Notes: a model not told the origin generated them from the letters alone. 64,000 bases of DNA from Patescibacteria group bacterium (GCA_040756075.1 JBFLZX010000001.1:28787-92786); one strand, 5' to 3'. Shown: positions 44,615 through 60,267, numbered from the stretch's first letter. A program made the numbers and translations.

Positions 44615-45953
44615 AATAATTTTTTTAGCCCATTCCAATAATGACATAGACCATTTTTTGCCAATAATAAACGGTTTAAATAAGCAAACTATATTTAACC
44701 CTGAAATACTTTTTTTGAGATTCGAAGAAGAGGCTGTAAGCAATAGACTGCATAAAGAATTAATTAAAAATCTTTCAGTTGGTAAGCGGTCTGCTTCCGA
44801 TTTCTTAGAATGGCCTTTTATTTCCAGGATCCTATTCTTTATTATGAAGTATTGTTATATACGGACGAAAGGCAGAACTCTAAAAGATTTTATTAGAGGA
44901 AAAGATATAGTAAGAATTTTTTATAAGGGAGTGTATATATTACTCGATAGACTATTAAAGAGATATTGCGAACAATTATTTACCGTAGCGGCTATTAATA
45001 AAATAATGCAGAAGATTGCGCCAGATCTTGTATTAATCGATCCACAGCTTATTCAATTAGTACCTCCATTTTCAGATTTAAGATCTTATTTATCATCACA
45101 GATAGTTCAGGCTTGTAAATATAAGAGGATACCGGTTTTTATGGTATCCCATGGGGTAGAAATAATGTATGTAACACATAAAGACCACAAAATTGATGAA
45201 GCCCTAGTTTATAAACCGGATGTTTTTGGCTTGTGTAATGATAAAGATGATTTAGGTGTTAACGGGATTATCAGTAATAATGTTAGAAAAGTAATTTTGG
45301 GAGATTTAAGGTATGATAGGCGCTGGGTTGAAATACTAGAGTCTACAGCAAAAAAGATTTATAACATAAATAAACCTATTGAGAAAATTATCATCCTTTA
45401 CTTAGTAGGAAATCTTAGATTCTTGAATGATAAAAAATATGAAAAAGATATTCATAAAGACATAATATCCATACTTGATAATTATAGAAATGTAGAATTA
45501 TGGATAAAAATGCATCCTCGCGTTATAGAAGATATTGATGTGGGCGTAGCGATTAATAAGGACATATCATCAAGGATAAAGATATTTAGGAATGAGATTG
45601 ATACCAATGCATTGATACCGCATGCCGATATTTTTATATCTACTTTTTCGGGTGTTCTTTTTCAGGGTATAATGAAAAAGAAGCCGGTTATTTTCTATCA
45701 AAGATGGAGAGAACGCATGGATCATCCTATAAAAACTATTTTTGATGACAGTTACTATGTCATAAAGGCGATGAATAACGAACAGTTAAAAGAAAGTATA
45801 GCAGCTATTTTAAATTTAAAGCATATTGATGATGAAGAAGCCGATAGATTTTATAGACAGGCTGTTTGCGGCGGTATAGCAAGAGACGGCAATATTATAA
45901 ATAATTATGTAGATGAAATAAGAAATATAGTTTTAGAAAGGGCAAATGGTTAA
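44595..45953 (+). CDS. TagB/TagF/KpsC-family GT-B transferase, paralogue of 32492..34330
   Basis: C-terminal block KMHPRV ... FISTFSGVLFQG ... KPVIFYQR, the same K-x-HP / S-x-S / P-V-I-F pattern as 32492. Confidence 0.4.
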   Translation: MKKKQYKIIFLAHSNNDIDHFLPIINGLNKQTIFNPEILFLRFEEEAVSNRLHKELIKNLSVGKRSASDFLEWPFISRILFFIMKYCYIRTKGRTLKDFIRGKDIVRIFYKGVYILLDRLLKRYCEQLFTVAAINKIMQKIAPDLVLIDPQLIQLVPPFSDLRSYLSSQIVQACKYKRIPVFMVSHGVEIMYVTHKDHKIDEALVYKPDVFGLCNDKDDLGVNGIISNNVRKVILGDLRYDRRWVEILESTAKKIYNINKPIEKIIILYLVGNLRFLNDKKYEKDIHKDIISILDNYRNVELWIKMHPRVIEDIDVGVAINKDISSRIKIFRNEIDTNALIPHADIFISTFSGVLFQGIMKKKPVIFYQRWRERMDHPIKTIFDDSYYVIKAMNNEQLKESIAAILNLKHIDDEEADRFYRQAVCGGIARDGNIINNYVDEIRNIVLERANG

Positions 45954-46740: not shown

Positions 46741-47682
46741 ATGAAACTTATAATTCAAATACCTTGTTATAACGAAGAAAAAACACTTCCTTTGGTTATT
46801 AACGCATTACCTAAGCAAATTAATGGCATAGACAAAATTGAAGTTTTAATTATTAATGATGGCAGCACAGATAATACGATAAATATTGCAGGGAACCTTG
46901 GTGTTGCTCATGTATTAGATTTACCTCATAGGGGCTTAGCTGAGGCATTTAGGAGGGGATTAGAAAAATGCCTTATTCTTGGCGCAGACATTATAGTTAA
47001 TACAGATGGGGATAATCAATATAAAGGAGAAGATATTCCGCGTTTAATAGAACCTATTTTAAAAAGGAAAGCAGATATGGTGATAGGATGTAGGAATATT
47101 TTAGCAATCAAACATTTTTCTTATCTTAAAAAATTACTACAAAAAATTGGCAGTTATTTTGTAAGAAAGTTTTCTGCAACTAAGATTCCTGATGTAACTA
47201 GCGGTTTTAGGGCATATTCACGAAATGCCGCCTTAAGGCTGAATATATTTTCTAGCTATACCTATACATTAGAAACAATAATTCAAGCCGGGAAGAAACA
47301 AATTCCCATGTCTTTTATAAAAATAGATACTAATGGAAAACTGAGGGAATCAAGATTAATAAAAAATATATTTTTTTATATATTAAGGTCAATAGCTACA
47401 ATTTTGCGTATTTATCTCATGTACGAACCTATGCGCTTTTTTATAAAAATAGGTTCAATTTTTATATTAGGCTTCGCTTTAATAGGTGCCCGGTATTTAT
47501 ATTTTTTCTTTTTTGGGCTTAAGCGCAGTGGCCATTTGCAATCTCTTATTTTGGCTGCAGTGTTTGTAATCATAGGTGTTCAACTTGTTTTTATTGGATT
47601 TTTAGCAGATATCATCGCAGCAAATAGAAAATTATTAGAAGAAATTCTTTATAGACAAAGAAAAGAACAGTTTAAAAATTAG
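46741..47682 (+). CDS. GT2 polyprenyl-phosphate sugar synthase with C-terminal membrane anchors (DPM1/GtrB/PpgS-like)
   Basis: IQIPCYNEEKTLPLV, LIINDGSTDNT and NTDGDNQY. The C-terminal roughly 90 aa contain two TM helices. Confidence 0.7.
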   Translation: MKLIIQIPCYNEEKTLPLVINALPKQINGIDKIEVLIINDGSTDNTINIAGNLGVAHVLDLPHRGLAEAFRRGLEKCLILGADIIVNTDGDNQYKGEDIPRLIEPILKRKADMVIGCRNILAIKHFSYLKKLLQKIGSYFVRKFSATKIPDVTSGFRAYSRNAALRLNIFSSYTYTLETIIQAGKKQIPMSFIKIDTNGKLRESRLIKNIFFYILRSIATILRIYLMYEPMRFFIKIGSIFILGFALIGARYLYFFFFGLKRSGHLQSLILAAVFVIIGVQLVFIGFLADIIAANRKLLEEILYRQRKEQFKN

Positions 47683-48755
47683 TGGAAAGAAAAAGAATAT
47701 TATTAATAAGCAGAAAATATCCGCCTATGATTGGCGGTATGGAAACTTACACAAAAAATTTATTAAGCAATCTATGTTTATCATACGATGTAGATACAAT
47801 ACTACTTAATAAGAAACAATTTCATCTTATTTGGTTTTTGCCGTATGTTTTTATAAAGAGTTTTTTCTTAAGTTTACGGCATAAATACAGTGTTCTGTAT
47901 ATTTGTGATGCCTTATTGTCGCCTTTAGGCTTAATTATAAAATCAATATTTAATATAAAAACGATTGCGACTGTTCATGGTTTAGATGTTACTTATCCAA
48001 ATTTTTTATATCAAAAAATAGTGCCCTTTTCTTTGTCAAAACTAGATTATTTGGTATGTGTGAGCAATAATACAGTTAGCGAATGTATTAAAAGAGGTAT
48101 TTGTGCATCAAAGTGTATATTTATTCCAAACGGTGTTAATATTAATGAGTATTATTTAGAGCAATCTAAAAATGATGTTCTTGAGCAGCTTAAAGGAAAA
48201 ATGAAACATGATTTTAATAATAAAAAGATATTGCTTACTACGGGGCGTTTGATAAAAAGAAAAGGCATGGATTGGTTTTTGAAAAATATATTTATGCAAT
48301 TAGGGCCTGATTTTATCTATTTTGTAAGCGGCGAAGGACCACTAAAGAGGGACTTAAGGCGTATTATCGATAAACAATCTCTAAAAAATAAAGTTTTTTT
48401 ATTAGGTAAGGTTGATAGAAATACACTAAAGCTTCTTTATAACTCTGCGGATGCCTTTATTATGCCCAATCAAATTATAAAGAGTGACCCTGAAGGTTTT
48501 GGTATTGTTGCATTAGAAGCAGCCAGTTGTGGCGTACCAGTAATTGCTAATGCCGTAGACGGCATAAAAGAGGCAGTCTTAGATGGCAAAACAGGATGGT
48601 TAATAAAGTATAATAATAAAGATGCCTTTATCGAAAAAATTATAAATCCAGGCCTTAGAGCTAATAGTGTAAGAGAAGCAATCCATTCATTTAGCTGGGT
48701 AAATTTAATAAAGAGCTATCAGAAAATTATAGAGAATAATTATGACGATTTATAA
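47682..48755 (+). CDS. GT4-family (GT-B) glycosyltransferase
   Basis: The C-terminal EGFGIVALEAASCGVPVIAN gives the E-x7-E motif of retaining GT4 enzymes. GTG start. Confidence 0.7.
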   Translation: MERKRILLISRKYPPMIGGMETYTKNLLSNLCLSYDVDTILLNKKQFHLIWFLPYVFIKSFFLSLRHKYSVLYICDALLSPLGLIIKSIFNIKTIATVHGLDVTYPNFLYQKIVPFSLSKLDYLVCVSNNTVSECIKRGICASKCIFIPNGVNINEYYLEQSKNDVLEQLKGKMKHDFNNKKILLTTGRLIKRKGMDWFLKNIFMQLGPDFIYFVSGEGPLKRDLRRIIDKQSLKNKVFLLGKVDRNTLKLLYNSADAFIMPNQIIKSDPEGFGIVALEAASCGVPVIANAVDGIKEAVLDGKTGWLIKYNNKDAFIEKIINPGLRANSVREAIHSFSWVNLIKSYQKIIENNYDDL

Positions 48756-49425
48756 GACTGCTAGCGAATCATCTCAACAAAGGTATTATTTTGATGCTTT
48801 TTATAAAAAAGAAAGAAAAAAAGTTTATTTTTACGAGCTAAATGATTTTAAAAACAGAATCGGAGAGACAGTAGAAAAAATAGTACTTTCTATAGGTAAT
48901 GGCAATAAAAGTCCTATTTTTGAAAATCAAATAATTTCTGATATTTCTTTTGAGGGGATAAAGAAGGTAGATTCAAGGAGAAAAGTTGTTTTAGATTGCC
49001 ATAGCCTTCCTTTTAAAAAAGATAGTATAGATATTATATTTGGGTGGCAAGTTGTACATCATTTAAGCTTGGATAAATTTTTATCACAAGTTAAATTTAC
49101 GCTCAAGAGTGGAGGAAAATGTGTTTTTGTCGATAATGGTTATTCGCCGCATTGGAGAATAATAAGAAATTTATTTCCTAAGAAAAAAAATGAACCGGCC
49201 GAAGATATGAGCGAGGATCTTATTTATCAAAAAATAGAAGAATACGGGTTTAAAAAATTCGATGCAAAAAGATATAATTTTTTTGCCTATTTATTCAGCA
49301 AAACATTTAGGGAGCTTGGTATTAATTTATCTATTAATATTTTAGGAGAAATAGATCAGTTTTTCTCTAGATGGGAATGGTTTAGAAGAAACTTAAGGAA
49401 TATGGTTTGGAGTTTTGAGAAATAA
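48742..49425 (+). CDS. Probable SAM-dependent methyltransferase (Methyltransf_11-like)
   Basis: LSIGNGNKS glycine-rich loop, DCHSLPFKKDSIDIIFGWQVVHHL and LKSGGKCVFVD blocks. Confidence 0.45.
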   Translation: MTIYKTASESSQQRYYFDAFYKKERKKVYFYELNDFKNRIGETVEKIVLSIGNGNKSPIFENQIISDISFEGIKKVDSRRKVVLDCHSLPFKKDSIDIIFGWQVVHHLSLDKFLSQVKFTLKSGGKCVFVDNGYSPHWRIIRNLFPKKKNEPAEDMSEDLIYQKIEEYGFKKFDAKRYNFFAYLFSKTFRELGINLSINILGEIDQFFSRWEWFRRNLRNMVWSFEK

Positions 49426-49427
49426 TT

Positions 49428-50879
49428 ATGAATTACAAAAAGATACTTTTGTTAAGGCCAAATTATAGAGAATCGCATTATGAATACACCGGTTTGCCTG
49501 CCGGCATAGGTTATATCTCAGAAGCATTGGATAAAGCAGGTATACCGCAGGAAGTCGTTGATATGTCATTGGGGTATAATTACACCTATCTTAAAAGGCG
49601 TATTGAAAAATTTAATCCGGATATGCTTGGCGTATCATTAATGAGCTTCAGGTATAAGGACCATTATGTTTTGATTAATAAGATCAAAGATGATTTTAAA
49701 AATTTAAAGATTATTGCTGGTGGGCCGCATATCTCAACTTTTAGAGAAAAATCTTTAATTGAATGTAATGCAATAGATTACGGGGTTACTTTGGAAGGCG
49801 AAGATGCAATGCTGGAACTTTGCATGAGGCAGGATAACCCTTTTAACATAAAAGGCCTCTTCTTTAAGAATCGCGACGGGATTGTTTATACTGGTGACAG
49901 GCAATTTAAGCAAAATCCGGATGTTTTTGGATTCCCGAAATATAAATTCTTTGAAAAAGATAAATATCCTAAATTTATTTCACTTTTAACTAGTCGCGGT
50001 TGTCCGTATAATTGTATATTTTGCCCTGTTCAGTTAACAATCGGTAAAAAATTACGCGTGAGGACTCCCGAGTCCGTATTAGATGAAATAAGTTATTGGT
50101 ACGAACAAGGAATAAGAGTTTTTAATGTGGTTGATGATAATTTTACTTTTTACAAACAAAGAGTTATAGATATTTGCGATGGCATCAAGAAAAGGAAGTT
50201 TAAAAATATAACTCTAAGTTGCAGAAATGGTATACGGGCCGATACCGTTGATAGAGAAACATTAAGATTTATGAAGGAAGTCGGATTTAACTATCTTGCC
50301 TTTGGTGTTGAAAGTGGTAGCGAAAAGATATTAAAGGTGTTAAAAAAAGGAGAAAATCTGTCTAAAATAAAAACAGCGATAAAAGATGCCTGTGAGCTTG
50401 GCTTTATGGTTACTTTATTTTTTATCATCGGCATGCCATACGAGACAGAGGAAGATGTTAGCGAATCATTAAAAATTGCAATGGAATTTCCTGTTTTTGA
50501 TGTCCGTTTTTATAATCCGATACCTTTTCCAGGAACGGAGTTATATGATTGGATAGCGAAGAACAATTATTTTAACAAATCCAACAGAGATTATTTAAAT
50601 AATCTTTCTCATTGGGTAAATAAGCCAATATTTGAAACACCAGAGCTACCTTTTGAAGCAAGAAAGGTTCTCTATGAGCGGCTCAATAAGATTATAAAAA
50701 AACATACTTTTAAAACAAAGATTTTATTCTTAAAAGATACAGAAAGGTTATTTACTAACCTTGGAATACCGCTTTTTTTAAGCAAATACCTGGCTAGAAT
50801 TTATTATACGCAGTTTTTTCAAATGTCTTTTATACAATCAGGATTAGCCGCAAAATTTAAAAAGTTTATTAAAAAATAG
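49428..50879 (+). CDS. B12-binding radical SAM protein
   Basis: N-terminal B12-binding-like domain. Radical SAM motif TSRGCPYNCIFCPV. Confidence 0.75.
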   Translation: MNYKKILLLRPNYRESHYEYTGLPAGIGYISEALDKAGIPQEVVDMSLGYNYTYLKRRIEKFNPDMLGVSLMSFRYKDHYVLINKIKDDFKNLKIIAGGPHISTFREKSLIECNAIDYGVTLEGEDAMLELCMRQDNPFNIKGLFFKNRDGIVYTGDRQFKQNPDVFGFPKYKFFEKDKYPKFISLLTSRGCPYNCIFCPVQLTIGKKLRVRTPESVLDEISYWYEQGIRVFNVVDDNFTFYKQRVIDICDGIKKRKFKNITLSCRNGIRADTVDRETLRFMKEVGFNYLAFGVESGSEKILKVLKKGENLSKIKTAIKDACELGFMVTLFFIIGMPYETEEDVSESLKIAMEFPVFDVRFYNPIPFPGTELYDWIAKNNYFNKSNRDYLNNLSHWVNKPIFETPELPFEARKVLYERLNKIIKKHTFKTKILFLKDTERLFTNLGIPLFLSKYLARIYYTQFFQMSFIQSGLAAKFKKFIKK

Positions 50880-50888
50880 CTTAAGAAT

Positions 50889-52022
50889 ATGAATATTTTT
50901 ACAGTCACAATGACACCGATAAATCCACCTTATGATGATGGAGCAAAAAATATCGTTTTGGGTATTGCAAATCATATAAAAAACCATAATTTTTATTTTA
51001 TTTCTGCTTTTACAAGGAGATTTAAGGCAGGCAGTAATATTTCTTTTATTTTTTCGCCTTTTCAGGGCGTTGGTATGCATAGCATGGCTTTTTTTCAGAA
51101 AATTTATATAACATTAATTATACTTTTAAGGATACAAAAAATAGATATTTTACAATTTTTTTTTACGCCGCAGATGTATTTTTCAAAAATTTTTGGCAAT
51201 TTAGTTAAGAGATACAATAAGAAATCAATCCAAATAGTTTCTTCTGTGCATACGCTTTTTAAAAAAAACTCAGCTGAGATTATACCAGCACTTTTTTTTG
51301 CGGATTATACAATAACCCATTCCGATTATACGAAAAATTTACTTACCGTATTAGGAGTAAAAAATGTACTCAAGGTCTATCCGGGAATAGAATTTAGCCG
51401 TTTTAGAGCTAACCCCTTAGGAAGAAAAAGTAATGATTTAACCGTTCTTTATGCGGGTACTTACAAGATCCTTAAAGAATCATATTCTTTCGAAGAATTT
51501 TATGAAATTTCCAGGATTGTGTGTGGAAATATAGAAAATTTAAAATTTATAATGGCCTGTCGAATAAGGTCAAAAGAAGATCGTTTATACGAAAAGACAT
51601 TTAAGAAGCTTGTAGAGAAAAATAATCTTTTACAGCATTTTATTTTTCTTAATACCGTAGAAGATATGCCTTCTTTAATAAATAATTGTTCTGTCGGAAT
51701 CATGCCGTCAAGGAATCAAATGTCCGGTGTCTTAGAGATTCCTCTTGTGTTGCTTGAGTTGGCGGCAATGGAAAAGCCCGTTATATATAGCGCGATTGAG
51801 CCATTTAATGAATTAGCAGATAAAGGTTTGGGAGTTTGTTTAAATGATATGTCTGCACAGAAATACGCAGAAACTATATTAGATATACTTAAAGATAGAA
51901 ATTTATACGATAATATTTCTAGGGATTCGAAAGATGCCGTTATGAAACATTTTGATATAGAAAAAACTGCTATTGAATATCAAAAAATCTATGCGGATTT
52001 AGAGAAAAATAATTATGAATAA
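50889..52022 (+). CDS. Putative GT-B fold glycosyltransferase (GT4-like)
   Basis: Two Rossmann-like halves, with a C-terminal EIPLVLLELAAMEKPVIYS block reminiscent of the GT4 nucleotide-sugar-binding region. Confidence 0.4.
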   Translation: MNIFTVTMTPINPPYDDGAKNIVLGIANHIKNHNFYFISAFTRRFKAGSNISFIFSPFQGVGMHSMAFFQKIYITLIILLRIQKIDILQFFFTPQMYFSKIFGNLVKRYNKKSIQIVSSVHTLFKKNSAEIIPALFFADYTITHSDYTKNLLTVLGVKNVLKVYPGIEFSRFRANPLGRKSNDLTVLYAGTYKILKESYSFEEFYEISRIVCGNIENLKFIMACRIRSKEDRLYEKTFKKLVEKNNLLQHFIFLNTVEDMPSLINNCSVGIMPSRNQMSGVLEIPLVLLELAAMEKPVIYSAIEPFNELADKGLGVCLNDMSAQKYAETILDILKDRNLYDNISRDSKDAVMKHFDIEKTAIEYQKIYADLEKNNYE

Positions 52023-53505
52023 TATACGTTTAATTATAAATGATGATTATCCCCTAGATAGTAATACATTAGATATTTTAAAGAGCATGAGCCAAGTAGA
52101 GGGCATAGTAAAGCCTATAGTTGCGCTTCCCGATGTGCATTTTAAATTTTCTTATTATACTCCTACAGGGGTAGTAGTTTTAAGTAAAAATACGATTATT
52201 CCTAAGTTTGTTAACGCAAATTGCGGCATGTCATTTATAATAACGCCATTTTTTGAAAATGATATTAGCGAAGTTATTCTTGATAAATTATTCGATTACC
52301 TTAGAACTAATATAGCCATTACGACAAGAATTTCTCCACTTATTTCCGTAAATGACCTTTCTGATATAGTAAAAAATGGCGCGGAATGGGTATTTGATAA
52401 GCATAGCTTAAATCGGCAGGATCTGCTAAACTTTGAAAATAATGGTTCGGCATTAAAAAACGACAAAAGGCCTATGGCTAAGATTATGTCATTTATACCA
52501 GAATATTGTAAGAAAATCGGTTTATATAGTTTAGGGGTTTTGGGTTATGGTAACCATTTCATAGAACTACAAAAAATAGATAAGGTAACAAATAAGCCAT
52601 TGGCAGATAAGTTTGGTATTTCTCCCGGACAGCTCTGTTTTATGATTCATAGTGATTCTCGGGCTTTCGGACAGTCTATTTATGACTTTTATTCGAAGAA
52701 AGCGAAAAAACTATTAGGCCTACAGCAAGTTTATAAAAAAATACACTATGCTATTGCATCTTCTGAAAACAGCCCGGAATTTATAAGGAATACGTTAAAT
52801 TTAACAAACCAGGCTTTAAACAGGTTAAAATCGACTCTTTATTGGAAATTAGATAGAATAAATAAAAAATCTTCTAAATTTGATGCCATAGGCATAGAGA
52901 CAGAAGAGGCAGATGCTTATATAACAAGCACTGCCTGTGCTATTAATTTTGGTTATGCCAACAGGACTTATTTAGCATCTATTATTCGCGATGGATTTAG
53001 AAAAGTGTTTAATAAAAATGCTGTCGATTTAACTATTCTTTATGATGGCAACCATGATAGCTTGCAGAAAGAAACTATAGATGGAAATGAGTTTATTGTA
53101 CATAGGAATGGGGCAAGCAGGGCATTGTCTCCGCAGTATTTTCCAAATCATCCGGTGTTTTCTTATACGGGACAACCGGTATTATTGCCAAGCGCTTTAG
53201 GAAGAATGTCTTTTTTATGCGCCGCTACGAAAGGATGTCCGGAATCATACTATTCGGCCTGTCACGGAACAGGAAGATTGATTGACAGGGGGCAGGCGAG
53301 ACAGATTTTTAAAACACAAGATGTTTTTAATGAAGTAAAAAAACAAAATATGAAAATTTACGATTATGGCAAAGGTTATATTTCCGAAGAATCTCCAGCT
53401 GCATTCAAAGATGCAGAGAAAATTTTAGAAACCGTTATTAACTACAATATAGCCGATCCGGTTGCAAGACTTAAACCATTAGCAGCGCTTAAAGGGTGGA
53501 GATAG
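52015..53505 (+). CDS. RtcB-family protein (RNA 3'-phosphate ligase homologue)
   Basis: IVALPDVH...NANCGM aligns with E. coli RtcB IAVMPDVH...VDIGCGM. GYGNHFIELQ aligns with GTGNHFIEI. SACHGTGR aligns with CSHGAGR, and the nucleophilic His is present. Confidence 0.65.
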   Translation: MNNIRLIINDDYPLDSNTLDILKSMSQVEGIVKPIVALPDVHFKFSYYTPTGVVVLSKNTIIPKFVNANCGMSFIITPFFENDISEVILDKLFDYLRTNIAITTRISPLISVNDLSDIVKNGAEWVFDKHSLNRQDLLNFENNGSALKNDKRPMAKIMSFIPEYCKKIGLYSLGVLGYGNHFIELQKIDKVTNKPLADKFGISPGQLCFMIHSDSRAFGQSIYDFYSKKAKKLLGLQQVYKKIHYAIASSENSPEFIRNTLNLTNQALNRLKSTLYWKLDRINKKSSKFDAIGIETEEADAYITSTACAINFGYANRTYLASIIRDGFRKVFNKNAVDLTILYDGNHDSLQKETIDGNEFIVHRNGASRALSPQYFPNHPVFSYTGQPVLLPSALGRMSFLCAATKGCPESYYSACHGTGRLIDRGQARQIFKTQDVFNEVKKQNMKIYDYGKGYISEESPAAFKDAEKILETVINYNIADPVARLKPLAALKGWR

Positions 53506-53506
53506 A

Positions 53507-54130
53507 ATGATTATAGCTTTTTGTGGAATCGATGGTTCCGGTAAAAGCACTTATGTTGGTTATACTATGGATTATTTAAATGCCAAAGGTTTAAAAACTA
53601 AATCTATACATATTATCAGAGATTCATTTTATCATTTTGTCCTTCATAACTATATTGGCAGGATTTCTTCTGTATCCCAAAAACGATTAGAGGATAATTT
53701 AAGAAACCCAAAAAATAAGATTTATCCCTTTATTGTAAAATTTTTAAAAAAAATATTATTATTTATGAATCTCATATATTTTAATTTAAAGCACCTATCC
53801 TATAAAGGCAATTTAAACAATAATATAGTTTGCGACAGGTATTTTTACGACGATTTAGTACAGATGAAATACTTAAAATTAGCTAAGGACAAATTCTTTT
53901 ATTTTTATGAAAAACTTATTATAAAGCCCGACATTATTTTTTTTGTAAAGGCAGATCCGCAAACTGCTTATTCAAGAAAATACGAATATAATTTAGATTA
54001 TTTTTTAAATAAAAATCGGTTATATTCCAATTTATTTAGCCATATTTTACACCTGGAATTAAGCCACCCGGACATAGAAAATAATAAGCAGTATATTTAT
54101 AGACAAATTGACGAAGTTATTCAAAGATAA
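53507..54130 (+). CDS. Thymidylate-kinase-family P-loop nucleotide/nucleoside-monophosphate kinase
   Basis: IIAFCGIDGSGKST P-loop (Tmk GxDGxGKST) and VCDRYFYD, which matches the Tmk DRY motif. Confidence 0.55.
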   Translation: MIIAFCGIDGSGKSTYVGYTMDYLNAKGLKTKSIHIIRDSFYHFVLHNYIGRISSVSQKRLEDNLRNPKNKIYPFIVKFLKKILLFMNLIYFNLKHLSYKGNLNNNIVCDRYFYDDLVQMKYLKLAKDKFFYFYEKLIIKPDIIFFVKADPQTAYSRKYEYNLDYFLNKNRLYSNLFSHILHLELSHPDIENNKQYIYRQIDEVIQR

Positions 54131-55071
54131 TGAACAGGAAACGATTGCTTCAGGTATTATTTATTACTATTATAACAGTGATGTTTATTATTTATTTCAG
54201 GAGAAATTATTCACATTTGAAAGATGTGATAAAGATAAAGCCGCATTTTTTAATTTGGTTGGTTCTATTAAATATTACAAACAAGATTTTGGGAGGTTTT
54301 AAAATAAGAACAGCCCTGGAGATATTTAAAATAAGGCTTTCTTTTATGCAGTGGTTTGGAGCTTCAGTTATTAATAATTTTTATAACTATCTTGCGCCTA
54401 AATCCGGTAGTGCGCTTTTAGCGGTTTATTTCAAAAATAATCATAAACTTGAGTACAACAAATATTTAAGCACCCTTGTAGTTATGGCTATGATTACTAT
54501 ATTAACTTTGGGTATAATAGGCTTTGTCACAAGTCTATATGCTTATAAAAACTATATTATAACAAGTTCTTTATTTATCTTAATTTTTATAGCCATGATT
54601 ACTCTGCCGCTTATTTTATTGATTATGCCGCGGATTTACTTTAATAAAAAGGGATTTTTTGAAAAAATAAATAGGTTTCTAGTAGGTTGGCATACCCTAC
54701 GCAAAAATAAAAAGATGATAGCATTGCTCTTTTTATCAGATGTAGGTATTTTAATGTCATTAGCCTTTCGTTACTATATTATGTTTAAAATGTTTTCATT
54801 AAATACCAACCTAATTAGCTGTATTCTTATAGCGCCATTTAACATCTTAATGCATTTTGCAACAATAGTACCTGGTGGCTATGGGATTAAAGAAGCAATT
54901 GTAGGCTTTGTATCCAAATTAACTAATATTGGTTTTGACGGAGGAGTTATATCAACATTAAGCGATAGGATAATAAATATGACAGTATCATTTATATTGG
55001 GGCCGCTATTTAGCTTTATTTTATTTAAGCGCATTTTTATACCTAAAAAGGAGATAGTAAAAAATGAATAA
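54130..55071 (+). CDS. Flippase-like integral membrane protein (UPF0104/LPG-synthase-TM-like)
   Basis: About 8 TM helices. The KIKPHFLIWLVLLNITNK start is typical of the flippase-like domain proteins that accompany GT2/GT-C pairs. Confidence 0.5.
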   Translation: MNRKRLLQVLFITIITVMFIIYFRRNYSHLKDVIKIKPHFLIWLVLLNITNKILGGFKIRTALEIFKIRLSFMQWFGASVINNFYNYLAPKSGSALLAVYFKNNHKLEYNKYLSTLVVMAMITILTLGIIGFVTSLYAYKNYIITSSLFILIFIAMITLPLILLIMPRIYFNKKGFFEKINRFLVGWHTLRKNKKMIALLFLSDVGILMSLAFRYYIMFKMFSLNTNLISCILIAPFNILMHFATIVPGGYGIKEAIVGFVSKLTNIGFDGGVISTLSDRIINMTVSFILGPLFSFILFKRIFIPKKEIVKNE

Positions 55072-56632
55072 ATATAAATCTTGCGCTTTGTTGATTTTGT
55101 TATTTTTTATGTCTTTTTATTCTTTATTTGGTATTGGGCATTTTGGCGGAGATGGTTACCAGGATTATTTAACTGCTGAAAGTATTGTTTTAGATCATAA
55201 TTTATCGCTAAACGATAGGCCAGAGGATATAGATGAATTACAATACATTAAAAGTTTTGGTATCAAGGGTACAGATAATAAAGTTTATAGTTCGCGCACG
55301 GGCTTAGGAGTGCCTATTATACTTGTTATATTTTATTTTTTTGGGCATGTTGCTTCTTTTTTATTTAAAGATTTACCGCATGATTTCATAACTATGTTTT
55401 TCGTTTCATTCGCTAATCCAGTTATCTGCGCATTATGTTGTTTTTTTGTGTTTGTCATCGCTAAGAAACTTAAATTTTCTTTACAAATATCGGCTATATT
55501 AGCGTTCATTTATGGCCTTTCTACTATGTTGCCTGTTTATGCAAGAACAGCATTTAACGAACCTGCTATAGGGCTATTTTTGCTTATTTCAATATATTTT
55601 ATATTAGACTATAAAAGCTCTTTAAATGTTCGTTGCTTAATTTTATCGGGATTGGCAATGGCATATTCATTTTTTATAAAACCGAGTAGTTTAATTTTTT
55701 TAGTTGCTTTATTGCCATATATTATGTGGATTAGTTTTGATTTAAAAATTAATAGTTTAAATAAAATAAAGCATTTTTTCTTTTATGTCGTTTCTCTATT
55801 AGTGCCGGTAATCTTAATCTGTATTTACAACCAGATTATCTATGGAGATTACCTAAAATTTGGCGGACAAGAAGCTTTTAAATTAGGAAAGCGCATTATG
55901 GGGTCAACACATCTATTAAAAGGATTTTATTATTATATGTTTAGTACGGGGAAAAGTTTTATTCTATTTAATATACCAATTGTTTTAGCATTTATCGGCG
56001 CATATAAAGCTTGGCAAGAAAGAAAAAAAGAAACGGTTTTATTCTTGTTAATATTTTTTGTTAATCTTTTATTCTTTGTTAAGTTTTTTAGGCGGGGATC
56101 ACTTTTTAGTTGGGGGCCACGTTATTTGCTGCCATCTTTGCCATTCTTAATATTTTTTATTGGGGATTATTGTCAAAATTATAGAAAGCTTATTTCAAAA
56201 GTAGCCCTATTTGTTTTATCTGTTATTGGTTTTTTGATTATGCTACCATGCTTATTTATAAATCAATCAAAATTTTATTTTTTTATCATTGAAAAGTTAA
56301 GGCTGGATGAATATATGATTAATTTTATCCCTGATTTGTCGCCGATACTTGGGGCATGGAATATGTTAATATCGAGAATTTATTTAAATTTAAAAGGGAT
56401 AGACATTCCCTTTATTTATAACCCGGATTATCGCCTTGTTAACCCTATATCAGCTAGCATGCTTGATTACAATAATTTTGATTTTTGGTTTTTGAAGATA
56501 ATCAAATATAAAACGGATTATAACTTTATTATTTCTTTATTAGTTTTATCTTTAGTTAGTTTAATATTATTATCAAGTAGTATTATTATAAAAATTTTGA
56601 TAAATAAAAATAATTCTCTAGATAATTATTAA
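55064..56632 (+). CDS. Polytopic membrane glycosyltransferase, GT-C fold (ArnT/PMT-like)
   Basis: At least 12 TM helices, with an acidic first loop (GDGYQDYLTAESIVLDHNL..DRPEDIDEL). Confidence 0.5.
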   Translation: MNKYKSCALLILLFFMSFYSLFGIGHFGGDGYQDYLTAESIVLDHNLSLNDRPEDIDELQYIKSFGIKGTDNKVYSSRTGLGVPIILVIFYFFGHVASFLFKDLPHDFITMFFVSFANPVICALCCFFVFVIAKKLKFSLQISAILAFIYGLSTMLPVYARTAFNEPAIGLFLLISIYFILDYKSSLNVRCLILSGLAMAYSFFIKPSSLIFLVALLPYIMWISFDLKINSLNKIKHFFFYVVSLLVPVILICIYNQIIYGDYLKFGGQEAFKLGKRIMGSTHLLKGFYYYMFSTGKSFILFNIPIVLAFIGAYKAWQERKKETVLFLLIFFVNLLFFVKFFRRGSLFSWGPRYLLPSLPFLIFFIGDYCQNYRKLISKVALFVLSVIGFLIMLPCLFINQSKFYFFIIEKLRLDEYMINFIPDLSPILGAWNMLISRIYLNLKGIDIPFIYNPDYRLVNPISASMLDYNNFDFWFLKIIKYKTDYNFIISLLVLSLVSLILLSSSIIIKILINKNNSLDNY

Positions 56633-56637: not shown

Positions 56638-57585
56638 ATGGATATACATATAATTATATTAAATTATAACGGAATGGCTCTTTTAAAAAAACATCTACCA
56701 TCTGTAATCATGGCTCATAATCGTTGTTCATATAAAAGCCGCATAACTATTTTAGATAATGGGAGTACAGATGGGAGTTTGTTATATGTAAGAGAAAATT
56801 TTCCCGAAGTGAACATAAGTATTTCTCCAAAAAATTTAGTTTTAATTTCATACAACGCATTTATTCAACAAATAAAAGAAAAAGTTATATTATTGTTAAA
56901 TAATGATGTTAGGTTGTCGGAAGATTGTATTGATTTAATGATGCCACATTTTTTAGATAGTTCTGTTTTTTTTGTTTCTCCGCTTGTTTTGAATAAAGAT
57001 GGAAATGACTTAAACGGAGGCTGTATGGATTTTTCATTTAAATATGGATTATTTCAGAATAAATTCAAGCAGCCGACAGTTAATAAATATTCCTTATTTA
57101 TTGGGAGTAGCGTTGCTTTTGATAGGGATAAATTTCTGGCTTTAAGTGGATACGATTCTATTTATTTACCTGGCACTTACGAAGATGTAGATATATGCTA
57201 TAGGGCTTGGCAAAGGGGATGGTTTGGCATCTGTGAAAAAAAAGCAATCGCTTATCATGACGATTCGGCTTCGTTTAATAAGGAATACGGCAATAAAAAA
57301 CGCCAAATAATATCAGCTAGGAATGCTTATATATTTGTTTGGAAAAACATACACAGCCCCACGATACTCTGTACAAATATTATTTGTTATCCATTAGTAA
57401 TAATATTTAATATGATGCGTTTACGGTTTGATTTGGTTTTAGGTTACCTACAGGCCATTTTTTTATTACCTGCTATTTTTAAAAGAAGGATATTTTGTAA
57501 TAGGCAGATTAAAAGGACGGATTCAGAGATTAAACAACTTTTTAATAGCACATCAGGAGATAAAAATGTATATACTTGGAATTAA
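56638..57585 (+). CDS. GT2-family glycosyltransferase
   Basis: IIILNYNGMALLKKHLPSV, ILDNGSTDGS and a later YEDVDI block (DxD-like). Confidence 0.65.
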   Translation: MDIHIIILNYNGMALLKKHLPSVIMAHNRCSYKSRITILDNGSTDGSLLYVRENFPEVNISISPKNLVLISYNAFIQQIKEKVILLLNNDVRLSEDCIDLMMPHFLDSSVFFVSPLVLNKDGNDLNGGCMDFSFKYGLFQNKFKQPTVNKYSLFIGSSVAFDRDKFLALSGYDSIYLPGTYEDVDICYRAWQRGWFGICEKKAIAYHDDSASFNKEYGNKKRQIISARNAYIFVWKNIHSPTILCTNIICYPLVIIFNMMRLRFDLVLGYLQAIFLLPAIFKRRIFCNRQIKRTDSEIKQLFNSTSGDKNVYTWN

Positions 57586-59242
57586 TTGCGGACACGATGC
57601 AACAGCAGCCCTTATAAAAAATGAAAAAATTATAGCTGTTGTTCAGGAAGAAAGAAAAACGCGCATCAAACATCAAAATGGATTTCCCTTCTTAGCCATA
57701 AAAGAAGTATTATATATCGGTGGAATCGAAGCTAAGGATATAGATTATATTGCTTGGGCAGGAAATGATAGGCGGCTTCAATCAATAAAAGAGTTGTTTT
57801 GGGCAATAGGAGGAGATAAGTTTTATTCATATGGAGGAATAACTAAAAGGATTAAAACGGCTATAGCCGAAAATACAAAAGGAATATGGAATTTCAACGG
57901 CAATCTTAAGAAATTAAAATTAAACAAAAAGAAATCTTTCTTTTTTGAACATCATCTTTGTCATGCGTCATCGGCATACCGTAATTCGGGTTTTCAGAAA
58001 GCCCTAATTTTGACAATCGATGGCGTAGGAGATAATATTTCCGCTACAGTAAATATTGGAGATAAAGGTCTGATTAAAAGAATAGCAAAGACTAGCCCGA
58101 AACACAGTATCGGGTTGCTTTATCAAGCAGTAACCGAGGCATTAGGGTTTGTTCCTGTCGAAGGCGAATATAAAACTATGGGCCTTGCAGCTTATGGCGA
58201 TAAAATTAAACTCTACAACTATTTTAATAATATAATAAGCTATGAGAATTTAAGGTTTAAATCAAAATTTATATGGGAATCTAATTGGCAATTTCCTGCT
58301 CCTAGCATACGCCAACATATTTTATTCAAGAATTTACTCAAACAGTACAAAAAAGAAGATATAGCAGCGAGTTGTCAGGCTGTTTGCGAAGATGTAATTT
58401 ATAGATTTGTGAATGATGTTGTTAAGAAAACAGATATTCATAATATATGTGTTGCCGGCGGAGTTTTTCTTAATGTTAAAGCAAACAAAATAATTAGGGA
58501 AAAAGTCCCTCTAGATTCTTTATATATTCATCCGGATGCTGGCGATGGAGGTTTAGCTTTAGGGGCGGCTTTAGAATTATATTTTAACTTAACGGGCTCT
58601 ATGCCTAGAGACAAATTAGATAACACTTATTTTGGCAGGAGTTATGCTAATGAAGAAATAAAGAAAGAATTAGATAGAAATAATCTAAAGGTATATTATT
58701 TTGAAGATATTGAAAAAAAAGCAGCAGAATTATTAAAATCAGGAAAAGTCATAGGCTGGTTTCAGGGGAGAATGGAAATGGGCCCACGCGCCTTAGGTAA
58801 TAGGTCTGTTTTAGCAGATCCTCGTAATCCATCGGTGAAAGAAAAAATCAACAAACATCTTAAAAAACGCGATTGGTTTGTGCCATTTGCACCCTCAATT
58901 TTAGAGGAAGATAGCAATCTTTATATTAAGGAATTTAATGGGTATGCTCCTTTTATGATTATGGCGTTTGATGCTGACGTTACTAAAAAAGAGTTAATAC
59001 CAGCAGTTGTGCATGTTGATAATACGTTAAGGCCGCAGATCGTAAGAAAAGAATTCAATCTTTCGTACTGGAAGTTGATAAAGTCGTTTAAAGAGCTTAC
59101 TGGCATTGGCGTTGTATTGAATACCTCATTTAATAGGCATGGTTTACCGATGGTAGAATCTCCCAAGGATGCAGTGGAGCACTTATTGGACCGTAATATT
59201 GATACCCTAGTTATTGGGAATTATATCGTTGACAGGCCTTAA
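57566..59242 (+). CDS. Carbamoyltransferase (NodU/CmcH family)
   Basis: YILGINCGHDATAALIKNEKIIAVVQEERKTRIKH matches the family's N-terminal signature. The C-terminal domain has the usual FPFAPS and NTSFN blocks. Confidence 0.75.
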   Translation: MYILGINCGHDATAALIKNEKIIAVVQEERKTRIKHQNGFPFLAIKEVLYIGGIEAKDIDYIAWAGNDRRLQSIKELFWAIGGDKFYSYGGITKRIKTAIAENTKGIWNFNGNLKKLKLNKKKSFFFEHHLCHASSAYRNSGFQKALILTIDGVGDNISATVNIGDKGLIKRIAKTSPKHSIGLLYQAVTEALGFVPVEGEYKTMGLAAYGDKIKLYNYFNNIISYENLRFKSKFIWESNWQFPAPSIRQHILFKNLLKQYKKEDIAASCQAVCEDVIYRFVNDVVKKTDIHNICVAGGVFLNVKANKIIREKVPLDSLYIHPDAGDGGLALGAALELYFNLTGSMPRDKLDNTYFGRSYANEEIKKELDRNNLKVYYFEDIEKKAAELLKSGKVIGWFQGRMEMGPRALGNRSVLADPRNPSVKEKINKHLKKRDWFVPFAPSILEEDSNLYIKEFNGYAPFMIMAFDADVTKKELIPAVVHVDNTLRPQIVRKEFNLSYWKLIKSFKELTGIGVVLNTSFNRHGLPMVESPKDAVEHLLDRNIDTLVIGNYIVDRP

Positions 59243-59259
59243 AAATAAAGCATGTATTA

Positions 59260-60267
59260 ATGAAAAGAAAAAGTATTTTAAAAAGATTTGGTTCACAAGA
59301 ATTAGCAGTATGTGAGCAAGTTGCAGAAAAGCCATTTATAGAGCTGCAAGGCAATAATATTATGCCTCTACCAAAAGACTTTTTTTGTCTTAGAATTGAT
59401 GCAGATGAGCATAATGAAGAATTATTCGATGAATTTTTGAGTGTCTTTGATAACTTTAAAGATGCCATAACAATTTTTTTTAATGCACATAATTTTTCTT
59501 CTCTAAAAGATAAAATTATTAAATGCGCTAATTCAGGATTAGATGTTCAATCTCATGGGTATTACCACTATACTTATAATGACTACAGAAGCAATCGATA
59601 TAATATAAATAAAGCAAAGCGGTTTTTCGAAGAGTTAGGAATTACGACTATTGGATTTGCTGCTCCTATGGGGAAATGGAATGAGAGTTTAATGTATGCC
59701 TTGGAAGATGAGGGCTATGAATATTCCTCGGACTTTAGTTATGATTATTTAGGCTTTCCGACTTATCCTAATTTAGGAAATAGAGTATCTAGTATCCTTG
59801 AAATTCCAATTTTTCCTGTTGCGCCAGAGTTATTTTTTCAAAATAATAATTTTAACTCAAGGAGAATCTTAGAATTTTATGAAAATGCTATTAAAGAAAT
59901 AAGTTCTTGTGGGCTACCGGTAATAATTTATGCTCATACAAGTAATTATAATGAAATACCTAAACTTTTAAACAGCATATTAGAATTTGCTATTCTAAAA
60001 AATAAACTAACTCCTATTAATCTAACAAATTTTTATAATTTATGGAAAAAAATTCATCCGCAGAAAATACAGATGACCAGTAGGGCGGATAAAATAAAAA
60101 TACCAAATTCAGATCTTTTAGGAGAAACGATAAACTTAGAGATAAATAGTTTTTTAAAAAACTATTTTAAAAACTTGATTGATTTTGAACGGATTACTCC
60201 CTTAGATGAAATTCAATACGGATGGTTTAAAAAAACGATAAACAAAGTATTAAGAAATTTTTTATAA
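59260..60267 (+). CDS. Putative polysaccharide deacetylase-like (NodB homology) protein
   Basis: LRIDADEH (a TFDDG-like motif 1), QSHGYYH (an H-x3-H motif 2) and FAAPMGKWN (an RPPYG-like motif). The match is weak. Confidence 0.4.
   Translation: MKRKSILKRFGSQELAVCEQVAEKPFIELQGNNIMPLPKDFFCLRIDADEHNEELFDEFLSVFDNFKDAITIFFNAHNFSSLKDKIIKCANSGLDVQSHGYYHYTYNDYRSNRYNINKAKRFFEELGITTIGFAAPMGKWNESLMYALEDEGYEYSSDFSYDYLGFPTYPNLGNRVSSILEIPIFPVAPELFFQNNNFNSRRILEFYENAIKEISSCGLPVIIYAHTSNYNEIPKLLNSILEFAILKNKLTPINLTNFYNLWKKIHPQKIQMTSRADKIKIPNSDLLGETINLEINSFLKNYFKNLIDFERITPLDEIQYGWFKKTINKVLRNFL

What the first reader, a model, noticed from the sequence alone, without database searches (positions are those of the whole stretch)
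52015..54130. RtcB-family ligase homologue plus Tmk-like P-loop kinase embedded in the glycan operon
The 496 aa ORF has the diagnostic RtcB blocks (PDVH, CGM, GxGNHF, CHGxGR with the nucleophilic His). RtcB enzymes activate a terminal phosphate by His-GMP transfer and then join it to a hydroxyl. Immediately downstream, with a 1-nt gap, is a thymidylate-kinase-like kinase (GxDGSGKST, DRY). The pair lies between a GT-B gene and a flippase/GT-C pair, is transcribed with them, and is translationally coupled to them. No RtcA/archease/RtcR partners are present. One possibility is that the kinase phosphorylates a sugar or glycan hydroxyl and the RtcB homologue nucleotidylates that phosphate or ligates it to a hydroxyl. 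That would be an RNA-ligase-like mechanism for making a phosphodiester or NDP linkage in a glycan, which is undescribed. Alternatively the pair is simply an RNA-repair cassette that happens to sit here.
Basis: partly seen in the sequence, partly recalled or inferred. Interest (0 to 1): 0.85.

Follow-up and report, generated by a model that had tools for sequence, protein, structure and literature searches.

The report
RtcB-like enzyme and kinase in glycan loci
A rare, divergent relative of the RNA ligase RtcB always sits next to a small thymidylate-kinase-like kinase inside cell-envelope sugar-polymer gene clusters of uncultured bacteria and archaea. This suggests the RNA-ligase chemistry has been borrowed to activate or join a phosphorylated sugar or lipid building block, but no experiment has tested this.

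Summary

The RtcB belongs to a rare clade: about 7-9 of roughly 7,700 RtcB representatives. In all 10 loci examined, from Omnitrophota-like bacteria and archaea, the kinase lies directly downstream. It was found in 0 of 79 other RtcB loci (p = 2e-13). Neighbours are always glycosyltransferases, flippases and GT-C enzymes, never RtcA, archease or RtcR.

The guanylylation core is invariant: the His nucleophile, Cys, three His, Asn202 and the guanine-specific Glu and Lys. The Asp95 metal ligand is absent throughout. RNA contacts Arg190 and Gln194 are replaced, an acid appears at Asn330, and there is a 45-residue insert.

Best reading: the kinase installs a phosphate and the RtcB-like enzyme guanylylates it. 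The product is either a GDP-linked donor or, after attack by a hydroxyl, a phosphodiester. The substrate is unknown and the chemistry is inferred. No publication on this was found. This is a new variant of a known kind, with high interest.

The parts
52015..53505 (+). Divergent RtcB-family enzyme (496 aa). Predicted GTP- and metal-dependent histidine-guanylylating transferase or ligase. Key residues: His417 nucleophile; Cys70, His181, His212, His347 metal ligands; Asn180; Glu184 and Lys493 for guanine; Asn67 in place of Asp95; Asp348 in place of Asn330; clade-specific insert at about 234-290.
   Evidence: Pfam E 2.4e-83. PDB phmmer alignments to PhoRtcB and TTHA1785. AF2 model pLDDT 92.7. Foldseek TM 0.75, E 1e-36 to human and Pho RtcB. 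Residue statistics.
53507..54130 (+). Thymidylate-kinase-fold P-loop kinase (207 aa), the obligate partner of the RtcB-like gene. Family invariants: G7 D9 G10 G12 K13, D110 R111 Y112, D115, P141, R157.
50889..52022 (+). GT1/GT4-type (GT-B) glycosyltransferase 'GT1a'. Its stop overlaps the RtcB-like start by 8 nt. Orthologues hold the same position in L001, L003, L005 and the archaeal-type L006.
   Evidence: Pfam Glycos_transf_1. Pairwise identity 34-48% over full length. Junction sequence.
47682..48755 (+). Second GT4 glycosyltransferase 'GT4b', also orthologous across the same loci.
   Evidence: Pairwise identity 33-49%. NCBIfam sub-threshold GT4 hits such as BshA, MshA and Mgs-like.
46741..47682 (+). 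GT2 with a C-terminal membrane segment, of the polyprenyl-phosphate glycosyltransferase type (AglJ, ArnC or PpgS-like). This is the first gene of the conserved module.
   Evidence: Pfam Glycos_transf_2. NCBIfam sub-threshold AglJ and ArnC hits. Same position in L001, L003 and L005.
48742..50879 (+). Variable tailoring insert: a class I methyltransferase (48742-49425) and a B12-binding radical SAM enzyme (49428-50879).
   Evidence: Pfam. Either one is present at this position in L001 and L003, and both are absent in L005.
54130..55071 (+). LPG_synthase_TM (MprF-type flippase-like) membrane protein. Its start overlaps the kinase stop.
   Evidence: Pfam PF03706 E 3.8e-24. NCBIfam 'flippase-like domain' 39 bits against a cutoff of 43. 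Present next to the pair in L001, L003, L005, L008, L094 and L095.
55064..56632 (+). GT-C fold (PMT-like) membrane glycosyltransferase.
   Evidence: Pfam PMT E 2e-5. NCBIfam LA_3751/LA_3752 family, sub-threshold. Syntenic GT-C in L001, L003, L005 and L095.
56638..60267 (+). Arn-like tail: GT2 (56638-57585), carbamoyltransferase (57566-59242) and a polysaccharide-deacetylase-family enzyme (59260-60267).
   Evidence: Pfam. L003 and L005 carry GT2 plus formyltransferase plus deacetylase at the same place.

Best explanation
The two genes form a portable 'phosphorylate, then guanylylate' cassette that works in envelope glycoconjugate (glycan or glycolipid) biosynthesis, not RNA repair. Proposed steps: (1) The Tmk-fold kinase uses ATP to put a terminal phosphate on a pathway intermediate X. 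X could be a sugar, a polyol or head-group, or a lipid-linked glycan made by the adjacent GT4 enzymes. (2) The RtcB-like enzyme reacts with GTP at a remodelled two-metal site to form His417-GMP. (3) It transfers GMP to the phosphate, giving X-pp-G, a GDP-activated species chemically equivalent to RNA(3')pp(5')G, to a GDP-sugar or to a CDP-alcohol. (4) A hydroxyl attacks, releasing GMP and leaving a phosphodiester. This could happen in the RtcB-like active site or on a neighbouring transferase that uses GDP-X as donor. Shown here: family membership, fold, conservation of the guanylylation residues, loss of Asp95, Arg190 and Gln194, obligate kinase pairing, and glycan or glycolipid context in two domains of life. 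Inferred: every chemical step, the identity of X, and whether step 4 happens on this enzyme.
For: The clade is discrete and rare. Subfamily-HMM scores are 632-826 bits for members against 432 or less for all other RtcBs. In an exhaustive search of 1.84 billion representatives, about 7 full-length and 2 fragment clusters scored 497 bits or more, followed by a gap, out of 7,735 RtcB-family hits. The kinase lies immediately downstream in 10 of 10 loci: window, L001, L003, L005-L009, L094 and L095. Five more pairs are inferred from equal contig lengths. It is absent from 0 of 79 other RtcB loci within about 10 kb (Fisher p = 2e-13). Pairwise identities of the two proteins co-vary (Spearman 0.59). 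Neighbours differ between loci but are always GT1, GT2, GT-C, Wzx or MprF-like flippase genes, nucleotide-sugar genes, or a PIP-synthase-like CDP-alcohol phosphotransferase in L094 and L095. The loci include contigs with archaeal ribosomal genes (L006; L007, a Methanosarcinales MAG). The nearest outgroups lack both the kinase and the glycan context (L010 and L012). Invariant in the clade are the equivalents of PhoRtcB D65, H67, C98, N202, H203, F204, E206, H234, H329, H404, R408 and K480. Their roles in metal binding, GTP binding, guanine specificity and the nucleophile come from PMC9745838. The RNA 5'-OH-strand contacts Arg190 and Gln194 (PMC8051266) are replaced by V/M/I and Ser. RtcB enzymes are known to stop at the GMP-capped stage on some phosphate ends, as with E. 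coli DNA3'pp5'G and M. xanthus RtcB3 5'-phosphate capping (PMC10630183; reference list). A sister clade of the kinase sits in similar GT4 and GT2 clusters. There it is paired not with RtcB but with a conserved 264-279 aa protein carrying a KTxS...DxD...D motif and a weak NTP_transf_5 hit. This fits a 'kinase plus nucleotidyltransferase' logic.
Against: There is no biochemical evidence at all, and gene neighbourhood is circumstantial. The Asp95 carboxylate that binds metal M2 is missing in every member: Asn, Leu or Phe sits three residues before the Cys. Guanylylation competence is therefore not assured. The universal Asp or Glu at the Asn330 position is only a conjectured replacement ligand. 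The kinase has Tmk-type motifs (P-loop Asp, DRY), not deoxynucleoside-kinase motifs. Tmk enzymes phosphorylate a phosphate, not a hydroxyl, so the product could be a diphosphate or the substrate a nucleotide. The sealing-specific Arg238 equivalent is kept in the core clade (49 of 53 sequences) but is E, E, M and G in deep-branching members, so step 4 on this enzyme is uncertain. Net charge of the clade is not lower than that of canonical RtcBs, so nucleic-acid binding cannot be excluded on that ground. The NTase assignment of the sister clade's partner is weak: 2 of 9 members, E 1.6e-4, below the Pfam cutoff. I could not scan whole genomes to show a separate canonical rtcB and tmk in the same organisms.
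Confidence: 0.5

Rival explanations
1. GDP-X synthase only. The pair is a two-step salvage-type activation route: the kinase makes X-phosphate (for example a sugar-1-phosphate or polyol phosphate), and the RtcB-like enzyme acts solely as a guanylyltransferase, stopping at X-pp-G. A separate GT-B or CDP-alcohol-type transferase then uses this GDP-X donor. This is a sub-variant of the best explanation that differs in where the final bond is made.
For: The guanylylation core is invariant, while the sealing-specific Arg238 equivalent is lost in deep-branching members. An orthologous GT-B gene overlaps the RtcB-like start in 5 loci. Capping without ligation is documented for RtcB enzymes. The sister kinase clade is paired with a putative nucleotidyltransferase.
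Against: Asn202, which contacts the attacking 5'-OH in PhoRtcB, is invariant, but it also contacts GTP. Arg238 is retained in the core clade. No known anomeric or polyol kinase has a Tmk fold. Ordinary NTP_transferase genes are present in several of the same clusters.
Confidence: 0.22
2. An RNA-repair or tRNA-ligase cassette that merely hitchhikes in glycan islands. The RtcB-like protein still seals RNA 3'-P/5'-OH ends.
For: Full RtcB fold and nucleophile. Net positive charge is retained. All characterised RtcBs act on nucleic acids.
Against: The pair is embedded, often with overlapping stop and start codons, in glycan operons in 10 of 10 loci with varying neighbours and in two domains of life. 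None has RtcA, archease, RtcR or PrfH. Canonical RtcBs and the nearest outgroups never carry the kinase. RtcB ligation needs no kinase. The RNA contacts Arg190 and Gln194 and the metal ligand Asp95 are replaced.
Confidence: 0.07
3. The kinase is a dedicated nucleotide kinase. It either supplies dTDP or another NDP for nucleotide-sugar synthesis, or recycles the GMP released by the ligase. It does not act on the glycan building block, and the RtcB-like enzyme gets its phosphate substrate from elsewhere.
Against: The score is far below the dTMP-kinase equivalog cutoff. The region corresponding to the NMP-binding segment is divergent and poorly modelled. Strict 1:1 adjacency and co-divergence with a rare RtcB clade is not expected for a general nucleotide-supply enzyme. 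A sister clade pairs with a different putative nucleotidyltransferase in glycan loci.
Confidence: 0.12
4. A decayed or non-catalytic RtcB homologue, because the M2 metal site is disabled by loss of Asp95, serving a structural or regulatory role.
For: The Asp95 carboxylate is absent in all members.
Against: 46 columns are invariant across members down to 35% identity, including the nucleophile His, the Cys, all three His ligands and the guanine-specificity residues. This pattern indicates purifying selection on catalysis. A new invariant acid sits at the Asn330 position.
Confidence: 0.05

Closest known systems
RtcB 3'-phosphate/5'-hydroxyl RNA ligases (P. horikoshii RtcB, E. coli RtcB, human RTCB)
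   Same: Same fold (TM about 0.75) and Pfam family. The His nucleophile, the bridging Cys, three His metal ligands, Asn202, the guanine-specific Glu206 and Lys480, and the Asp65/His67 motif are all conserved. The expected chemistry of His-GMP followed by phosphate-pp-G is therefore the same.
   Different: Identity is only 25-30%. Asp95 (the M2 ligand) is missing and the loop is 2 residues shorter. Arg190 and Gln194 (RNA contacts), Arg101, Gly236 and Asn330 are replaced by clade-specific residues. There is a roughly 45-residue two-helix insert at 234-290. The enzyme is never found with RtcA, archease, RtcR or PrfH, always has a Tmk-like kinase downstream, and sits inside glycan or glycolipid clusters.
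RtcB capping enzymes (M. xanthus RtcB3 5'-phosphate capping; E. coli RtcB DNA3'pp5'G capping)
   Same: These are precedents for an RtcB transferring GMP to a terminal phosphomonoester and stopping there (title).
   Different: Their substrates are still nucleic-acid ends, and they have no kinase partner or glycan context.
Thymidylate kinase (Tmk) and the dNMP/deoxynucleoside kinase fold
   Different: Fails the dTMP-kinase equivalog threshold (34.9 against 83.25). The segment that binds dTMP in Tmk is not alignable with confidence and has low pLDDT. The genomic role is as a fixed partner of a rare RtcB clade.
CDP-alcohol route to phosphodiesters (CdsA or cytidylyltransferase plus CDP-alcohol phosphotransferase; TagF or LicD-type transferases)
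   Same: The logic matches what the RtcB mechanism would deliver on a non-RNA phosphate. A phosphomonoester is activated as an NDP adduct, then attacked by a hydroxyl, releasing NMP and leaving a phosphodiester. PIP-synthase-like CDP-alcohol phosphotransferases sit beside the pair in L094 and L095, and a TagF-like gene lies in the window.
   Different: The folds are unrelated, and the RtcB route uses GTP with a covalent His-GMP enzyme intermediate. This is an analogy of chemistry only, not homology.
Three-component extracytoplasmic glycosylation systems (ArnC/ArnE-F/ArnT; GtrA/B/C; CsbB/GtcA/YfhO) and PIM/LM-type glycolipid pathways
   Same: The conserved surrounding module has a polyprenyl-phosphate GT2, a flippase-like membrane protein, a GT-C enzyme, two cytoplasmic GT4 enzymes and an Arn-like formyl/carbamoyl transferase plus deacetylase.
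   Different: None of those systems contains an RtcB-family enzyme or a Tmk-fold kinase.

Membership tests
RtcB family (PF01139) | Full-length match to the family profile and the RtcB fold | tested here: met
   Pfam E 2.4e-83 covering profile positions 3-426 of 426. AF2 model pLDDT 92.7. Foldseek E 1e-36, TM 0.74-0.79 to 8odp, 4dwq and 1uc2.
RtcB family (PF01139) | Histidine nucleophile for guanylylation (Pho His404) in the HGxGR motif | tested here: met
   His417 in CHGTGR. H, G, G and R are invariant in 37 aligned clade members.
RtcB family (PF01139) | M1 metal ligands Cys98, His234 and His329 | tested here: met
   Cys70, His212 and His347 are invariant. Roles from PMC9745838.
RtcB family (PF01139) | M2 metal ligands Asp95, Cys98 and His203 | tested here: not met
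   Cys70 and His181 are present. Asp95 is absent: the loop reads VNA--NCGM against GYDINCGV, and the residue three before the Cys is Asn in 50 of 53 members and Leu or Phe in L094 and L095.
RtcB family (PF01139) | GTP specificity residues Glu206 and Lys480 | tested here: met
   Glu184 and Lys493 are invariant. Roles from PMC9745838.
RtcB RNA ligase (function: seals RNA 3'-P/5'-OH) | Contacts to the 5'-OH nucleic-acid strand: Asn202, Arg238, Arg190, Gln194 | tested here: inconclusive
   Asn180 is invariant. The Arg238 equivalent is Arg in 49 of 53 members but E, E, M and G in L094, L095, L009 and L007. Arg190 is replaced by V/M/I and Gln194 by Ser.
RtcB RNA ligase (function: seals RNA 3'-P/5'-OH) | Genomic association with RNA-repair partners (RtcA, RtcR, archease, PrfH) | tested here: not met
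   None found in the scanned ORFs of the window or in 9 related loci.
RtcB RNA ligase (function: seals RNA 3'-P/5'-OH) | GTP/Mn-dependent guanylylation and RNA sealing activity | not testable with these tools
   Needs purified protein.
Thymidylate kinase (dTMP kinase, TIGR00041 / PF02223) | Tmk fold with P-loop, DR[YHF] motif and LID arginine | tested here: met
Thymidylate kinase (dTMP kinase, TIGR00041 / PF02223) | Score above the curated equivalog cutoff (being the genome's tmk) | tested here: not met
   NCBIfam TIGR00041 gives 34.9 bits against a cutoff of 83.25, and only the region 104-163 aligns.
Thymidylate kinase (dTMP kinase, TIGR00041 / PF02223) | dTMP-binding residues (stacking Phe, Arg on the helix after strand 2, TREP-type Arg) | tested here: inconclusive
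   The phmmer alignment to PfTMK is gapped and of low confidence in this segment. Model residues 41-70 have pLDDT 51-63. A conserved basic residue (K/R81) lies near the expected Arg.

The most novel reading that the evidence does not exclude
The RtcB fold has been recruited outside nucleic-acid metabolism. With its dedicated kinase, it would carry out GTP-dependent activation through His-GMP and joining of a phosphorylated sugar, polyol or lipid head-group to a hydroxyl of an envelope glycoconjugate. That would be a third, previously unknown enzymatic route to glycan or glycolipid phosphodiesters, alongside CDP-alcohol and NDP-sugar phosphotransferases, and the first non-nucleic-acid substrate for any RtcB. 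A more extreme variant, not excluded, is that the phosphorylated partner is itself a nucleotide, so that a nucleotide becomes covalently attached to a glycan.
Probability: 0.3. Interest if true: 0.9.

Novelty: new variant of a known kind. Interest (0 to 1): 0.75.

Why it matters
Every characterised RtcB acts on RNA or DNA ends. A conserved clade spanning bacteria and archaea, wired into glycan or glycolipid operons with its own kinase, would extend the chemistry of 'activate a phosphate with GMP, then join it to a hydroxyl' to carbohydrates or lipids. It would give glycobiology a new enzyme class for phosphodiester or GDP-donor formation. It would also give RtcB enzymology a natural active-site variant with no Asp95 and a relocated acidic residue. 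Finally, it points to unexplored envelope structures in Omnitrophota-like bacteria and archaea that have never been cultured. The hypothesis can be tested directly with two small soluble proteins.

Tried and rejected
1. Genome-contig scan with the clade alignment. Only one clade member came back (L011, the same place as L007). The 79 other loci were reused as a negative control.

2. Net-charge comparison to argue for loss of RNA binding. The clade is more positive than canonical RtcBs, probably because of AT-rich, Lys-rich genomes, so the argument was dropped.

3. Arg238 retention as evidence for the ligation step. It holds in the core clade but fails in deep-branching members, so it was downgraded.

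4. Promoter and terminator scans of 44-64 kb. Counts equal the shuffled expectation and are uninformative. The operon inference rests only on overlapping or abutting ORFs.

5. Defence-system reading. PADLOC gave no RtcB hit and only weak P-loop matches for the kinase.

6. Identifying the sister clade's partner protein. No PDB sequence relatives were found with a single sequence or a profile. Pfam NTP_transf_5 was hit by only 2 of 9 members, below cutoff. This is kept as a weak hint.

7. Literature. Searches combining RtcB with glycosyltransferase, gene cluster or polysaccharide, 'thymidylate kinase-like' with polysaccharide, and RtcB with paralogs, non-canonical and substrate found nothing relevant. 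The two Maughan and Shuman papers were not held in the library.

8. AFDB50 fold search for the kinase was unavailable. Model coordinates are not exposed, so I could not measure whether Asn67, Asp214 or Asp348 reaches the M2 site.


Full report
**1. Observation**

The window is AT-rich (about 31% GC). Essentially every large ORF lies on the + strand, and there are no tRNA or Rfam hits. ORF 52015-53505 (496 aa) matches Pfam RtcB end to end (E 2.4e-83). ORF 53507-54130 (207 aa) is a weak Thymidylate_kin match: 32.9 bits against a cutoff of 27, and 34.9 bits against the NCBIfam dTMP-kinase cutoff of 83.25.

Junctions are tight:
- The GT1 stop overlaps the RtcB start by 8 nt.
- A single base separates the RtcB stop from the kinase ATG, preceded by GGTGGAG.
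- The kinase stop and the next start overlap as TAATG.

Neighbours are a GT1, a B12-radical-SAM enzyme and a methyltransferase upstream. Downstream are an LPG_synthase_TM flippase-like protein, a PMT-like GT-C, a GT2, a carbamoyltransferase and a deacetylase. Pfam scans of the large ORFs up to 60267 show a 64-kb glycan island with no RtcA, archease or RtcR. The last three ORFs were not scanned.

**2. The RtcB-like protein**

A search of 5.8 billion proteins shows a sharp step. About 57 clusters share 35-65% identity with the query and are mostly labelled Omnitrophota MAGs. The query itself is labelled 'Patescibacteria group bacterium'. Below that step are ordinary RtcBs at 25-32% identity.

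An exhaustive profile search of 1.84 billion 50%-identity representatives found 7,735 RtcB-family proteins. Only about 7 full-length and 2 fragmentary representatives belong to this clade (497-785 bits), followed by a gap to 445 bits or less. The AF2 model is confident (pLDDT 92.7) and superposes on human and P. horikoshii RtcB (TM about 0.75, E 1e-36).

I mapped residues through the phmmer alignment to PhoRtcB and took their roles from PMC9745838 and PMC8051266.

Invariant in the clade:

| PhoRtcB residue | Role | Residue here |
|---|---|---|
| His404 | nucleophile | His417 |
| Cys98, His234, His329 | M1 metal ligands | Cys70, His212, His347 |
| His203 | M2 metal ligand | His181 |
| Asn202 | contacts GTP and the 5'-OH | Asn180 |
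| Glu206, Lys480 | guanine specificity | Glu184, Lys493 |
| Asp65/His67 | conserved motif | Asp40/His42 |
| Arg408 | conserved in the HGxGR motif | Arg421 |

Changed in the clade:
- Asp95 (M2 ligand) is absent. The loop is two residues shorter, and Asn (or Leu or Phe in deep branches) sits three residues before the Cys.
- Arg190 and Gln194, which hold the 5'-OH strand, become V/M/I and Ser.
- Arg101 becomes Ser and Gly236 becomes Asp.
- Asn330 becomes Asp, or Glu in L094. This is the one new acid that is universal.
- A two-helix insert of about 45 residues lies at 234-290, with its own conserved residues.
- The Arg238 equivalent, which is specific for the sealing step, is kept in the core clade but not in deep-branching members.

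So the guanylylation apparatus looks selected for, the metal site is remodelled, and part of the RNA-binding surface is gone.

**3. The kinase**

**4. Comparative genomics**

Ten clade loci were examined: the window, L001, L003, L005, L006, L007, L008, L009, L094 and L095. In every one the kinase lies directly downstream, with a gap of 0-22 nt except 337 nt in L095. A kinase HMM found no such gene within about 10 kb of 79 other RtcB genes. Fisher's exact test gives p = 2e-13. Pairwise identities of the two proteins co-vary (Spearman 0.59).

Contexts differ between loci but are always glycan or glycolipid:
- The window and three other bacterial loci (L001, L003, L005) share GT2, GT4b, an optional methyltransferase or radical SAM enzyme, GT1a, RtcB-like, kinase, MprF-type flippase-like protein and GT-C; L003 and L005 also carry the following GT2 plus formyl/carbamoyl transferase and deacetylase. 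GT1a and GT4b are orthologous across these loci (34-49% identity).
- L006 carries archaeal ribosomal L37e and LSM genes and has the same GT4b, GT1a, RtcB-like and kinase block, plus Wzx and a GT2.
- L007 is a Methanosarcinales MAG. There the pair lies between a UDP-glucose dehydrogenase and Wzx, Capsule_synth and phosphodiesterase genes.
- In L094 and L095 the pair is divergently adjacent to a CDP-alcohol phosphotransferase. Its best sub-threshold matches are archaetidylinositol-phosphate and PIP synthases. Flippase-like, GT2 and GT-C genes are also present.

The nearest non-clade RtcBs have no kinase and no glycan context. L010 belongs to the 'LDxGLNCGMR' clade. L012 lies among two-component, HlyD and DinB genes.

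**5. A sister kinase clade**

Kinases at 28-31% identity (P0137, P0141) also sit in GT4 and GT2 clusters. They are preceded by a conserved 264-279 aa protein instead of RtcB. That protein has the motif IKTFSSYPHxTxDLDVV plus a downstream invariant Asp, and a weak NTP_transf_5 hit in 2 of 9 members. If it is a Pol-beta-type nucleotidyltransferase, the 'kinase plus nucleotidyl-transferase' logic recurs with an unrelated second enzyme. The assignment is weak.

**6. Mechanism**

The most economical reading is that the kinase creates the terminal phosphate that RNA breakage normally supplies. The RtcB-like enzyme then forms His417-GMP and transfers GMP to that phosphate, giving X-pp-G. This species is chemically a GDP-sugar or a GDP-alcohol. 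RtcBs that stop at this 'capped' stage are known. Either the enzyme then lets a hydroxyl attack, leaving a phosphodiester and releasing GMP, or a neighbouring transferase uses GDP-X. The overall logic equals that of CdsA or a cytidylyltransferase plus a CDP-alcohol phosphotransferase, achieved by a different fold.

My estimates:

| Reading | Probability |
|---|---|
| Role in the glycoconjugate pathway | about 0.8 |
| Guanylylation of a non-nucleic-acid phosphate | about 0.5 |
| Full ligation on this enzyme | about 0.3 |
| GDP-X synthase only | about 0.2 |
| RNA repair | below 0.1 |

**7. Comparison with known systems, and novelty**

Literature searches found no report of an RtcB in a glycan context or with a non-nucleic-acid substrate, and a 2023 review lists only RNA and DNA substrates. 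The protein is a member of the RtcB family by fold and profile. It fails one defining catalytic feature (Asp95) and the genomic signature of RNA-repair RtcBs. The kinase has the Tmk fold but fails the tmk equivalog test. I classify the pair as a new variant of a known kind. It would be a new enzyme class for glycobiology if the chemistry is confirmed.

**8. Caveats**

All functional statements are inferred from sequence, models and gene neighbourhood. The loci are from MAGs or metagenomes and are phylogenetically clustered, so the 10 loci are not fully independent. Whole genomes could not be scanned for housekeeping rtcB and tmk.

Noticed in passing
window 17165-21385: A 717-aa fusion of a sulfatase-family domain with a C-terminal APS kinase. 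It is followed by an ATP sulfurylase (19321-20421) and a 325-aa protein consisting only of a pyruvate-kinase barrel (20408-21385). This implies PAPS synthesis inside the glycan island and probably a sulfated glycan. The sulfatase-APS kinase fusion is unusual.
   Followed up: no
window 2031-3428, 24716-26185, 28057-29508, 39973-41478, 49428-50879: Five paralogous B12-binding radical SAM enzymes are scattered through one co-directional 64-kb glycan island. The island also holds at least five GT-C or YfhO-type membrane transferases (94-1296, 3490-5007, 6390-8732, 12066-13769, 15320-16993, 55064-56632), each near a GT2. This suggests several parallel extracytoplasmic glycosylation modules with C-methylated sugars.
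   Followed up: no
L091 7165-8004; L092 4006-4800; L093 5249-6043: An uncharacterised 264-279 aa protein family (8 clusters found) with an invariant KTxSxxPHxTxDxD motif. It always sits immediately upstream of a sister clade of the Tmk-like kinase in GT4 and GT2 clusters. It has only a weak NTP_transf_5 similarity and may be a new nucleotidyltransferase partner.
   Followed up: partly
L094 1559-2260 (-); L095 899-1612 (-): CDP-alcohol phosphotransferases are divergently adjacent to the RtcB-like and kinase pair. Their best sub-threshold matches are archaetidylinositol-phosphate and phosphatidylinositol-phosphate synthases. This hints that at least some versions of the module build a phospho-polyol lipid anchor, as in PIM-like pathways.
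   Followed up: partly
proteins P0059-P0077; locus L010 8001-9476: A second divergent RtcB clade at 29-32% identity carries LD[AS]GLNCGMR, with the Asp shifted two residues away from the Cys and Gly at the Arg238 position. It has no kinase. In L010 it lies next to a polysaccharide-lyase-domain protein. Its function is unknown.
   Followed up: partly
window 26202-28060 and 37646-45953: A nonulosonic-acid set (NeuB and a CMP-transferase), then two more CTP_transf_3 genes, an HpcH/HpaI aldolase, a 2-hydroxyacid dehydrogenase, a cyclase-family protein, a HAD phosphatase and a weak TagF-like glycerophosphotransferase (44595-45953). These are further signs of CMP- or CDP-activated acids or polyols and of phosphodiester polymers in the same island.
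   Followed up: no
window 52015-54130 (proteins P0001, P0121): The source record labels the contig 'Patescibacteria group bacterium'. Yet the closest relatives of both proteins, and the syntenic loci, are labelled Omnitrophota, and related loci carry LPS-type heptosyltransferase genes. The taxonomic label of this MAG may deserve checking.
   Followed up: no
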